22,029 nt of DNA. Origin: a virus. Lineage: Duplodnaviria; Heunggongvirae; Uroviricota; Caudoviricetes. The notes beneath the pieces were generated by a model. The model was not told the DNA's origin and searched no databases. It saw only the letters and a list, made by a program, of their open reading frames with translations. Made by a program: the position numbers and the translations under genes. Where the stretch lies: positions 1 to 22,029 of the IMG/VR virus record IMGVR_UViG_2531839665_000007; one strand, given 5' to 3'. Positions 15,542 through 15,638 of the stretch are shown piece after piece. Numbering within the stretch: the stretch's first letter is position 1; every line of letters starts with the position of its first letter.

Positions 15542-15565
15542 CTTCATCGTCACATAGCTGGTAAC

Positions 15566-15592
15566 CAATGGCCTGAAGAGACGTTTGGGTGA
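15566..15592 (+). pseudogene. Remnant of the lambda cI 3' end (last 8 codons and stop)
   Basis: TGG CCT GAA GAG ACG TTT GGG TGA encodes WPEETFG-stop, the lambda CI C-terminus, about 25 bp downstream of the resident cI stop. Confidence 0.5.
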
Positions 15593-15638
15593 CAAGAAGC
15601 ATAGGTATTAACAATAACTTTCATGGTGATACGAATCA

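What the first reader, a model, noticed from the sequence alone, without database searches (positions are those of the whole stretch)
15554..15600. Immunity-swap scar: last 8 codons of lambda cI retained downstream of a heterologous cI
The resident repressor is not lambda CI, yet shortly after its stop the DNA still encodes WPEETFG-stop, the lambda CI C-terminus. This pinpoints a recombination junction where a foreign immunity module (cro-OR-cI) and the rex-slot cassette were spliced in, and shows the module boundaries at single-codon resolution.
Basis: partly seen in the sequence, partly recalled or inferred. Interest (0 to 1): 0.45.

Follow-up and report, generated by a model that had tools for sequence, protein, structure and literature searches.

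The report
Lambda repressor-tail relic marking cassette junction
A 27-base untranslated leftover of the phage lambda repressor gene sits behind an unrelated (933W-type) repressor; it is real but old and widely shared, and marks the spot where lambdoid prophages repeatedly swap the defence-gene cassette downstream of their repressor.

Summary
Window 15566-15592 encodes QWPEETFG-stop, matches 25 of 27 bases of the end of lambda cI, and lies 24 nt after the stop of a repressor 98% identical to 933W CI.

- The relic is not a private scar of this phage. The same stop, spacer and relic occur in 933W, BP-4795 and many Stx phages, and a 33-nt relic probe hits 1390 of 5426 complete E. coli genomes.
The spacer therefore holds two stacked repressor-tail relics.
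- The downstream cassette starts at the relic's stop codon and ends at a conserved terminator (16949-16990, lambda t_imm / 933W tM).
- In 198 loci these two short elements bracket 43 cassette types (RexA, BstA, PD-Lambda-2, Stk kinase and others). Nineteen types occur behind two or more repressor families.
- Variants flanking the invariant 20-nt core place the exchange points inside it.
- The relic decays or is lost in some phages, and I found no RNA structure or read-through signal.

My reading: a relic reused as a short homology arm for cassette exchange. It is an ordinary kind of lambdoid mosaic junction, unusually well resolved.

The parts
14834..15541 (+). Resident repressor gene cI, 933W type (235 aa, HTH + S24 peptidase); stop TGA at 15539-15541
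   Evidence: ORF list. Pfam HTH_3 and Peptidase_S24. 231/235 identical to 933W CI. Only a 45-aa local match to lambda CI.
15547..15564 (+). Relic 'B': last codons (S S H S W stop) of a third repressor family (SH2026Stx1/PA28-type). Out of frame with the resident cI and untranslated
   Evidence: The 22-nt probe (B-type cI tail plus C and CAG) matches 15547-15568 at 19/22; 16 of the 18 tail bases match (L034, L065). 18 nt are exact in L246. No hit in 100 shuffles. In L034, L065 and L246 this tail is the real end of an intact 235-aa repressor, identified as the SH2026Stx1/PA28 type.
15566..15592 (+). Relic 'A': last 8 codons plus stop of a lambda-type cI (QWPEETFG-stop), untranslated here. The invariant 20-nt core TGGCCTGAAGAGACGTTTGG is 15569-15588. 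Proposed left homology arm of the cassette slot
   Evidence: identity to lambda and chance test. (core behind many repressor types). (breakpoints at 15566 and 15592). (crossovers map inside the core).
15639..16181 (+). Cassette gene 1 (180 aa, unknown function; PHROG 2017; weak DUF6978 / PDC-M24A matches)
16169..16945 (+). Cassette gene 2 (258 aa, DUF1828; PHROG 1960; PDC-M24B match, E = 6e-7)
16944..16993 (+). Right boundary of the cassette: a conserved block matching lambda 35831-35782 (rexB stop plus t_imm terminator; called tM in the 933W record). Hairpin 16944-16974 followed by a T-run. The widely conserved part is 16949-16990. Proposed right homology arm
   Evidence: 90% identity over 50 nt to lambda. 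Present 650-2112 nt after the core in 82 loci. RNA fold -17 kcal/mol, z = -2.7. The 933W record annotates the matching site as terminator tM.
12142..14186 (-). Lambda-like ren-P-O and the 3' end of cII (97.6% to lambda 40636-38592). Similarity to lambda stops inside cII at 14186, the other edge of the non-lambda immunity region
17709..18090 (+). Return of lambda similarity (97.9%; lambda 34380-34000, orf28/ral region) after the non-lambda PL-OL-N segment. The N gene is about 17389-17724
   Evidence: Pfam N_peptide. PGAP annotation of the related E. coli C7 prophage (100% identical over window 15440-17000).

Best explanation
Window 15542-15592 is an untranslated stack of two fossil repressor-gene tails. 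The first is the end of an SH2026Stx1/PA28-type cI (15547-15564). The second is the last 8 codons plus stop of a lambda-type cI (15566-15592). They were left behind when repressor genes were successively replaced in ancestors of the 933W-type immunity region, long before this phage.

The lambda tail has no detectable function of its own in this context. Because it is shared by many lambdoid phages, either as the real end of cI or as a relic, it acts as a 20-27-bp patch of homology. With the roughly 40-bp PRM-operon terminator at the far end (16949-16990), it brackets the rex slot.

Recombination within these two short arms exchanges the 0.3-2.1-kb cassette of lysogen-expressed, mostly defence-type genes between heteroimmune prophages. 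This phage's DUF6978-like/DUF1828 pair is one such cassette.

Shown here: the identity of both relics, the sharp breakpoints, independent reassortment of repressor and cassette, placement of the exchange points inside the core, and dispensability of the relic.
Inferred: that the exchange is homologous recombination (Red/Rad52-like or RecA) rather than selection on illegitimate events, and the order of the ancestral replacements.
For: Relic identity
- 25/27 nt to lambda cI's end, with no hit in 100 shuffles.
- The 22-nt B probe (B-type cI tail plus CCAG) matches at 19/22 (16 of the 18 tail bases), with no hit in 100 shuffles.

Old and shared
- The identical stop-spacer-relic is present in 933W, BP-4795 and Stx phages.
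- A 33-nt relic probe hits 1390 of 5426 complete E. coli genomes, at 1924 places and up to 5 per genome.

Same core behind different repressors
- It is the true C-terminus in lambda/HK97-type and in a second family ending ...IIGKVVKAQWPEETFG.
- It is a relic after the stop in the 933W, B, phi80, HK225, L040, L053 and L041 types.
- The retained relic length differs by family, from 24 to at least 54 nt, which implies independent events.

Breakpoints
- The window is 98.2-98.4% identical to lambda-type-cI loci L074 and L059 over 15566-16983 and nowhere else in the repressor-to-terminator region; the only other shared blocks lie far downstream (from 17194 in L074, from 18999 in L059).
- Identity with 933W, BP-4795 and L005 stops at 15592 and resumes at 16949-16951.

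Reassortment
- 9 upstream clusters by 38 downstream clusters in about 126 loci.
- 198 loci have the core and the terminator 339-2086 nt apart, with 43 cassette types; 19 types occur behind two or more repressor families.

Crossover position
- The variant at the third base of the Gly codon plus the stop (ATAA, CTGA, TTAA, ATGA, GTAG) follows the cassette type across repressor families.
- The codon before the core (CAA, CAG, CGG, TAG) follows the repressor family.
- The exchange points therefore lie inside the invariant 20-mer.

Tandem use of the arm
- phi80 and L053 carry cI - core - 23-aa mini-ORF - second core.

Cargo and expression
- Cassette proteins match RexA, BstA, PD-Lambda-2, PD-T4-6 (kinase), PDC-M63, HigB, HipA-like and others.
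- Published work reports co-transcription of such genes with cI (PMC3564112) and calls the cI-N interval a mosaic hotspot (PMC8585504, citing Degnan 2007).

Mechanism in the literature
- Lambda Red recombines diverged sequences efficiently (PMC2327257).
- About half of lambdoid mosaics are flanked by traces of homology (PMC3945230).
- The window itself carries gam, a RecT-family bet and a YqaJ-type exo.
Against: - Arms of 20-27 bp (left) and about 40 bp at 90-97% identity (right) are at the lower limit for efficient homologous recombination (my recollection of published minimum lengths, not checked here). No experiment here shows exchange.
- Ascertainment: the first locus set was collected by searching for the core itself. 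The repressor-anchored scans correct this only for two repressor families.
- Diversity in the relic (pi 0.039-0.050) is slightly lower than at third codon positions of the adjacent cI end (0.075). That could reflect weak constraint rather than neutrality or homogenisation.
- Sharp junctions exactly at a stop codon could also arise if selection keeps only events that leave both neighbouring genes intact.
- gam and bet in this window are broken by homopolymer indels, so this copy may not supply Red itself.
Confidence: 0.72

Rival explanations
1. One-off scar: this phage, or a very recent ancestor, was a lambda-immunity phage whose cro-OR-cI module and rex cassette were replaced in one event, leaving the last 8 cI codons.
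For: The replication genes and the ral region flanking the immunity region are 97.6-97.9% lambda-like. The relic is 25/27 identical to lambda.
Against: - The same stop + spacer + relic is present in 933W, BP-4795 and dozens of Stx-phage haplotypes with other backbones.
- A relic of a third repressor type lies between the resident cI and the lambda tail.
- The same cassette occurs behind lambda-type cI, and the same repressor occurs with about 20 other cassettes.
- The relic carries GGG-TGA, the variant linked to this cassette, not lambda's GGC-TGA.
Confidence: 0.04
2. Functional cis element: the conserved 20-27 nt is kept by selection because the PRM transcript or the DNA needs it. It might be a processing site, a translation-initiation or coupling region for the first cassette gene, or a protein-binding site.
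For: - It is retained behind at least 7 repressor families.
- Relic diversity is slightly below synonymous diversity of the neighbouring cI end.
- In several cassette types the first start codon overlaps the relic's stop (GTGATG), for example in the phi80 mini-ORF.
Against: - It is dispensable: 8 of 41 933W-type haplotypes and 2 of 10 phi80/HK225-type haplotypes lack it.
- It decays: TGG to TGA in L129, three substitutions and a lost stop in L183, and an 11-nt internal deletion in Lambda_2E9.
- No Rfam family matches the region, and folding of 15520-15650 is not above background (z = +0.24).
- In this window the first cassette gene starts 47 nt after the relic with its own GGTGA upstream, so the relic is not its ribosome-binding site.
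- Distances to the first start codon vary between cassettes.
Confidence: 0.12
3. Extended repressor by stop-codon read-through: the relic is in frame with the resident cI's TGA, followed by C (which I recall as a weak termination context). A fraction of CI would then carry an extra 17 residues ending QWPEETFG.
For: In frame in the 933W, phi80, HK225 and L040 types, that is 4 of 7 relic-bearing families.
Against: - 4 of 7 in frame is not unusual (binomial P about 0.17, hand calculation).
- The spacer varies non-synonymously in that frame (GGT AAC versus GAT AGC).
- L129 has a stop inside the relic, Lambda_2E9 has a frame-breaking 11-nt deletion, and L211 lacks the relic.
- The spacer is better explained as another repressor's tail in a different frame.
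Confidence: 0.02
4. Chance resemblance of a short sequence.
For: Only 27 nt match, with no flanking similarity to lambda.
Against: No hit in 100 shuffles. The exact 20-mer is found at the same repressor-to-cassette position in more than 100 viral contigs.
Confidence: 0

Closest known systems
Short conserved boundary ('linker') sequences and homology traces at module junctions of lambdoid phages. This covers the modular-evolution idea of Susskind and Botstein and the junction analyses in the HK97/HK022 and HK620 genome papers (recalled from memory, not read here), and the 'HR traces' of Martinsohn et al. 2008 (PMC2327257) and De Paepe et al. 2014 (PMC3945230).
   Same: A short sequence shared by otherwise unrelated modules sits exactly at a gene boundary. 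Neighbouring modules reassort on both sides. Recombination in limited homology, favoured by Red/Rad52-like recombinases, is the accepted mechanism.
   Different: The shared patch here is identifiable as a fossil of a specific gene end (two stacked repressor tails). It is paired with a second arm (the terminator) to bracket one defined slot. Exchange points can be placed inside a 20-nt core.
The cI-to-N 'rex slot' of lambdoid prophages, a hotspot of accessory and defence genes co-transcribed with the repressor: lambda rexAB, 434 hex, 933W stk, BTP1 bstA (Degnan et al. 2007 as cited in PMC8585504; PMC3564112).
   Same: Same location and orientation. The cargo found here includes RexA, BstA and the Stk-type kinase.
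   Different: In the papers I could read the hotspot is described at gene level. The specific flanks (lambda cI tail relic plus t_imm) were not mentioned there. I could not read Degnan 2007, Juhala 2000 or Plunkett 1999, so prior description cannot be excluded.
Defence-gene hotspots with conserved flanks in other prophage or satellite families, such as the P2/P4 hotspots (recalled from memory).
   Same: Variable defence cargo sits between conserved flanking sequences at a fixed genome position.
   Different: The flanks there are whole conserved genes. Here they are 27-nt and roughly 40-nt non-coding elements, one of them a gene fossil.
Integron gene cassettes.
   Same: Small promoter-less cassettes are expressed from an upstream promoter. 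Tandem stacking is bounded by a repeated short element (phi80 and L053: core - mini-ORF - core).
   Different: There is no integrase and no attC-like structured site; folding was not significant. Exchange is presumably by general or Red homologous recombination. This is an analogy only, not membership.

Membership tests
Relic (pseudogene fragment) of the lambda-type cI 3' end | Nucleotide-level identity to the end of lambda cI beyond chance | tested here: met
   25/27 nt; E = 7e-5 against 7 kb of lambda. No hit in 100 shuffles.
Relic (pseudogene fragment) of the lambda-type cI 3' end | Lies where cI ends in lambda (directly before the rex slot, same strand) but is not part of an intact lambda-type cI ORF | tested here: met
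   It lies 24 nt after the stop of a 933W-type cI. The in-frame TGA is 9 codons upstream and no lambda-like sequence precedes it.
Relic (pseudogene fragment) of the lambda-type cI 3' end | Flanking similarity to lambda that would show direct descent from lambda | tested here: not met
   The match is limited to 15566-15592. The next lambda-like island is the terminator at 16944-16993.
Relic (pseudogene fragment) of the lambda-type cI 3' end | Freedom to decay (substitutions, indels, loss) in lineages where it is non-coding | tested here: met
   L129 has TGG to TGA. L183 has 3 substitutions and has lost the stop. L002 has an 11-nt deletion. 8 of 41 933W-type haplotypes lack the relic.
Mosaic-junction homology patch (linker / HR trace) of lambdoid phages | The same short sequence joins otherwise unrelated modules in many genomes | tested here: met
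   9 upstream by 38 downstream clusters. 43 cassette types in 198 loci.
Mosaic-junction homology patch (linker / HR trace) of lambdoid phages | Exchange points map within the shared patch | tested here: met
   Variants 3' of the core follow the cassette and variants 5' of it follow the repressor family. Pairwise identity blocks start at 15566 or end at 15592.
Mosaic-junction homology patch (linker / HR trace) of lambdoid phages | Recombination actually occurs there, dependent on Red or RecA | not testable with these tools
   Needs phage crosses. Literature supports the mechanism in general (PMC2327257, PMC3945230).
Intrinsic terminator of the PRM operon (lambda t_imm / 933W tM), the right arm | GC-rich hairpin followed by a U-run at the end of the cI operon | tested here: met
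   Hairpin 16944-16974, -17 kcal/mol, z = -2.7, followed by TTTTCTTT. 90% identical to lambda just past rexB. Annotated as tM in 933W. The simple consensus scan did not list it.
Prophage defence-gene hotspot (rex slot) | Variable cargo between conserved flanks that includes known defence genes | tested here: met
   RexA, BstA, PD-Lambda-2 A/B, PD-T4-6, PDC-M63, PDC-S13, mad6, MkoA, HigB and HipA-like among 51 cassette proteins.
Prophage defence-gene hotspot (rex slot) | This window's cassette confers phage defence | tested here: inconclusive
   Only weak matches to candidate system PDC-M24 (E = 1.5e-3 and 6e-7) and to domains of unknown function.
Structured or catalogued RNA element | Match to an Rfam family, or folding energy beyond shuffles | tested here: not met
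   No Rfam hit near 15500-15700. z = +0.24 for 15520-15650.
Programmed stop-codon read-through extension of CI | Extension frame kept open and conserved at protein level across relatives | tested here: not met
   Stop and frameshift variants exist, and the spacer varies non-synonymously.

The most novel reading that the evidence does not exclude
The lambda cI tail (20-27 nt) and the PRM-operon terminator (about 40 nt) would be a natural pair of recombineering arms, kept in many heteroimmune lambdoid prophages because lineages that retain them can acquire new defence cassettes from co-resident prophages by Red-type recombination. That is second-order selection for an exchangeable slot. It would explain why at least five unrelated repressor genes keep an untranslated lambda tail, why relics stack (B then A here; A then B in lambda itself), and why arms can be duplicated to hold tandem cassettes (phi80, L053).
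Probability: 0.2. Interest if true: 0.55.

Novelty: new member of a known kind. Interest (0 to 1): 0.3.

Why it matters
- The finding itself is minor for this phage, but it gives a nucleotide-resolution picture of how the slot downstream of the prophage repressor is reloaded.
- That slot holds rexAB, stk, bstA, PD-Lambda-2 and dozens of uncharacterised gene sets.
- The two short flanks (TGGCCTGAAGAGACGTTTGG and the t_imm hairpin) are a practical handle for mining lysogen-expressed defence cassettes from E. coli genomes. About a quarter of complete E. coli genomes carry the core.
- The flanks also suggest a simple cross experiment on minimal-homology recombination between co-resident prophages, including Stx phages.
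- Annotators should note that short repressor-like remnants after cI are fossils, not genes.

Tried and rejected
- Read-through or extended CI: considered because the relic is in frame with the TGA. Rejected because of stop, frameshift and non-synonymous variants in relatives, and because the spacer is another repressor's tail in a different frame.
- RNA element: the Rfam scan of the whole window found only the cIII thermoregulator, and folding of 15520-15650 was not better than shuffles.
- Ribosome-binding role for the first cassette gene: plausible for cassettes whose ATG overlaps the relic's stop, but not for this window, where the gene starts 47 nt later.
- 'Synonymous' core variant CCA..GAA as a sign of a coding origin: it occurs only in non-coding contexts (933W and B types), so it is uninformative.
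- Diversity test for constraint: the relic is slightly less diverse than third codon positions of the last 150 nt of cI, and whole-gene cI comparisons were also confounded by mosaic N-terminal domains. I treat it as inconclusive.
- The consensus terminator scan missed the t_imm hairpin, so I folded it directly.
- Literature: no paper in the held library mentions WPEETFG or this relic. Degnan 2007, Plunkett 1999 and the phi80 genome paper were not held, so I cannot say whether the relic has been described.
- The genome-contig scan for host range was mostly uninformative. Many hits are lambda control-DNA contamination in unrelated assemblies.

Full report
**Context**

The window is a lambdoid prophage read in the opposite orientation to the standard lambda map.
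- ren-P-O and the 3' end of cII (12142-14186) are 97.6% identical to lambda.
- The ral/orf28 region (17709-18090) is 97.9% identical to lambda.
- Between them, only two short islands match lambda: 15566-15592 (27 nt) and 16944-16993 (50 nt).
- The genes in this interval, in order:

| Coordinates | Strand | Gene |
|---|---|---|
| 14125-14421 | - | cII |
| 14528-14788 | - | cro |
| 14834-15541 | + | cI |
| 15639-16181 | + | unnamed ORF |
| 16169-16945 | + | unnamed ORF |
| about 17389-17724 | + | N |

- An identical stretch (window 15440-17000) is chromosomal in E. coli strains C7, C3 and others. It is found at 80% coverage or more in 61 of 5426 complete E. coli genomes.

**1. The observation**

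- Bases 15566-15592 read CAA TGG CCT GAA GAG ACG TTT GGG TGA, which is QWPEETFG-stop.
- They match lambda cI's last 27 nt at 25 positions. The 27-mer with up to 3 mismatches occurs once in the window and never in 100 shuffles.
- The repressor upstream is 231/235 identical to 933W CI. It has only a 45-residue local similarity to lambda CI.

**2. What surrounds it**

- The relic begins 24 nt after the resident cI's TGA.
- Those 24 nt are not random spacer. 15547-15564 (TCG TCA CAT AGC TGG TAA) is the tail of another repressor family, whose intact 235-aa genes end ...IIGRVFWSSHSW-stop in loci L034, L065 and L246.
- That family is the CI of Stx1 phages such as SH2026Stx1 and PA28.
- In those phages the real stop is followed by C, CAG and the lambda-type core, exactly as in the window.
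- So the window carries, in order: the 933W-type cI, a fossil of a 'B-type' tail, and a fossil of the lambda-type tail.
- Lambda itself shows the mirror image. Right after its own cI stop, 37227-37192 matches the B-type tail at 28 of 36 positions; the best of 200 shuffles was 26.

**3. It is not private to this phage**

- The same stop + spacer + relic is in 933W, BP-4795 and many Stx1/Stx2 phages. It is unannotated in the 933W record.
- Scanning IMG/VR with a 933W-cI anchor gave 41 short (130-nt) haplotypes. Thirty-three keep the relic and 8 lack it.
- A 33-nt relic probe hits 1390 of 5426 complete E. coli genomes, up to five places per genome.
- The core is the true C-terminal coding sequence in lambda/HK97-type repressors and in a second family ending ...IIGKVVKAQWPEETFG.
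- It is a non-coding relic behind the 933W, B, phi80, HK225, L040, L053 and L041 types.
- The retained relic length differs by family: 24 nt in phi80, 27 nt here, and at least 54 nt in the L041 type. Different lengths point to several independent repressor replacements.

**4. The relic is the left edge of an exchangeable cassette**

- Downstream of the relic's stop codon, sequences diverge at once into many unrelated types.
- Eighty-two loci carry, 650-2112 nt further on, a conserved block equal to window 16949-16990. This is a GC-rich hairpin plus T-run (-17 kcal/mol, z = -2.7). It corresponds to the sequence just past lambda rexB and to the site annotated tM in 933W.
- With relaxed matching, 198 loci have the core and the terminator 339-2086 nt apart, with 43 cassette types.
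- Pairwise comparisons are very sharp:
  - The window and two lambda-type-cI loci (L074, L059) are 98.2-98.4% identical over 15566-16983 and nowhere else between the repressor gene and the terminator; further shared blocks lie only far downstream.
  - The window and 933W, BP-4795 or an Stx2a phage are alike up to 15592 and again from 16949-16951.

**5. Where the exchanges happen**

- Nineteen of the 43 cassette types occur behind two or more repressor families.
- The variable bases just 3' of the core (third base of the Gly codon plus the stop: ATAA, CTGA, TTAA, ATGA, GTAG) go with the cassette type, whatever the repressor.
- The codon just 5' of the core (CAA, CAG, CGG, TAG) goes with the repressor family.
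- The joints therefore lie inside the invariant 20 nt.
- phi80 and locus L053 even carry two copies of the core bracketing a 23-codon hydrophobic mini-ORF. This is what unequal exchange at the core would produce.

**6. Is the relic itself functional?**

I found no support for this.
- It is lost or damaged in some lineages: TGG to TGA in L129, three substitutions and a lost stop in L183, an 11-nt internal deletion in Lambda_2E9, and absence in L130, L132, L149 and L211.
- Eleven of its 27 sites segregate among 52 long (708-nt) haplotypes. Diversity is 0.050, against 0.075 at third codon positions of the last 150 nt of cI and 0.049 in the spacer. This is roughly neutral, perhaps slightly homogenised.
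- No Rfam family matches the region and folding is not unusual.
- The in-frame arrangement with the resident TGA suggested read-through, but relatives break the frame. Only 4 of 7 families are in frame (binomial P about 0.17, hand calculation).
- In this window the first cassette gene starts 47 nt beyond the relic.

**7. Mechanism**

- Best-supported reading: the relic is a fossil that now serves as a short homology arm. With the terminator as the second arm, it allows cassette replacement between heteroimmune prophages.
- This fits published evidence. Lambda Red recombines diverged sequences efficiently (PMC2327257). About half of lambdoid mosaics are flanked by traces of homology (PMC3945230). 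The cI-N interval is a known mosaic hotspot whose genes ride on the repressor transcript (PMC8585504, PMC3564112).
- Arm lengths of 20-27 and about 40 bp are near the minimum reported for RecA- or Red-dependent exchange. That figure is from my own knowledge and was not checked here.
- The step 'homologous recombination in the arms' is inferred, not shown.
- The window carries gam, a RecT-family bet and a YqaJ-type exo. However, gam and bet are interrupted by single-base homopolymer indels relative to the E. coli C7 prophage.

**8. Cargo**

- Among 51 representative cassette proteins, PADLOC and Pfam recognise RexA, BstA, PD-Lambda-2 A/B, PD-T4-6 (the Stk-type kinase), PDC-M63, PDC-S13, PDC-S43, mad6, MkoA, HigB toxin, HipA-like kinase, an SDH-type protease and NYN.
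- The window's own pair belongs to PHROGs 2017 and 1960 (unknown function). It matches the candidate system PDC-M24 only weakly.

**9. Comparison with what is known, and novelty**

- This is an instance of a known kind: a short conserved sequence at a lambdoid module junction, at a known hotspot.
- What may be new in detail is:
  - identification of the junction sequence as stacked repressor-tail fossils;
  - its pairing with t_imm as a second arm;
  - the placement of exchange points inside a 20-nt core.
- I found no mention of it in the searchable library. The most relevant papers (Degnan 2007, Juhala 2000, Plunkett 1999) were not available, so prior description cannot be excluded.

**Verdict**

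- The feature is real, ordinary in kind and well resolved.
- It is of modest interest, mainly as a handle on prophage defence-cassette exchange.

Noticed in passing
window 15639-16945: The rex-slot cargo here is a two-gene pair of unknown function: a 180-aa protein with weak DUF6978 / PDC-M24A matches and a 258-aa DUF1828 / PDC-M24B protein (PHROGs 2017 and 1960). The same pair (98% identical) sits behind lambda-type cI in L074 and L059, and a 40%-identical version forms another cassette type. It is a candidate defence system and is untested.
   Followed up: partly
L001 (lambda) record 37227-37192: Lambda's own cI-rexA spacer begins with a relic of a B-type (SH2026Stx1/PA28-like) repressor tail. 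It reads IGKVFWSAHS-stop and matches at 28 of 36 nt. This is the reverse stacking order to the window. At least four different cassettes join right after this second relic in other loci (lambda, L065, L116, L118).
   Followed up: partly
L007 (phi80) 2501-2615; L053 7546-7652: A 23-codon hydrophobic mini-ORF (MREYLIVGVVTLLSVVAIVLMVA) starts at the ATG overlapping the relic's stop. It is bracketed by two copies of the lambda-tail core; the second copy is decayed in phi80. It is not annotated in the phi80 record. It may be a small membrane peptide expressed from PRM.
   Followed up: no
window about 19145, 19155 (gam) and about 19737 (bet): Relative to the 99.4%-identical E. coli C7 prophage, the window has three single-base homopolymer indels that break the gam and bet reading frames. 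These are either assembly errors or a decaying Red system.
   Followed up: partly
L002 (Escherichia virus Lambda_2E9) 4160-4185: In this sequenced phage the lambda-tail core carries an 11-nt internal deletion (CCAG-T-ACGTTTGG). This shows the relic is dispensable.
   Followed up: yes
window 18614-18672: Rfam Lambda_thermo (the cIII thermoregulator RNA) matches at 88.5 bits, as expected for a lambda-like early-left operon.
   Followed up: no
L254, L264, L277 and about 20 tiny contigs from the genome-contig scan: The exact lambda core turns up in assemblies of unrelated organisms such as Shewanella, Pseudomonas, Limosilactobacillus and Desulfovibrio. It lies on contigs of about 48.4-48.5 kb or a few hundred bp, several of them with coverage values near 1 in their names. 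These look like lambda control-DNA contamination rather than natural occurrences.
   Followed up: no
window 15538-15553: A 5-bp inverted repeat GTGAC-N6-GTCAC spans the resident cI stop codon. The terminator scan picked it up on the minus strand. It is probably insignificant.
   Followed up: no
window 17266-17724: The mechanical ORF for N is 152 aa, but the N_peptide domain starts at residue 42. PGAP calls the homologue in the related E. coli C7 prophage from the position equivalent to window 17389, so the real N is probably about 111 aa.
   Followed up: partly
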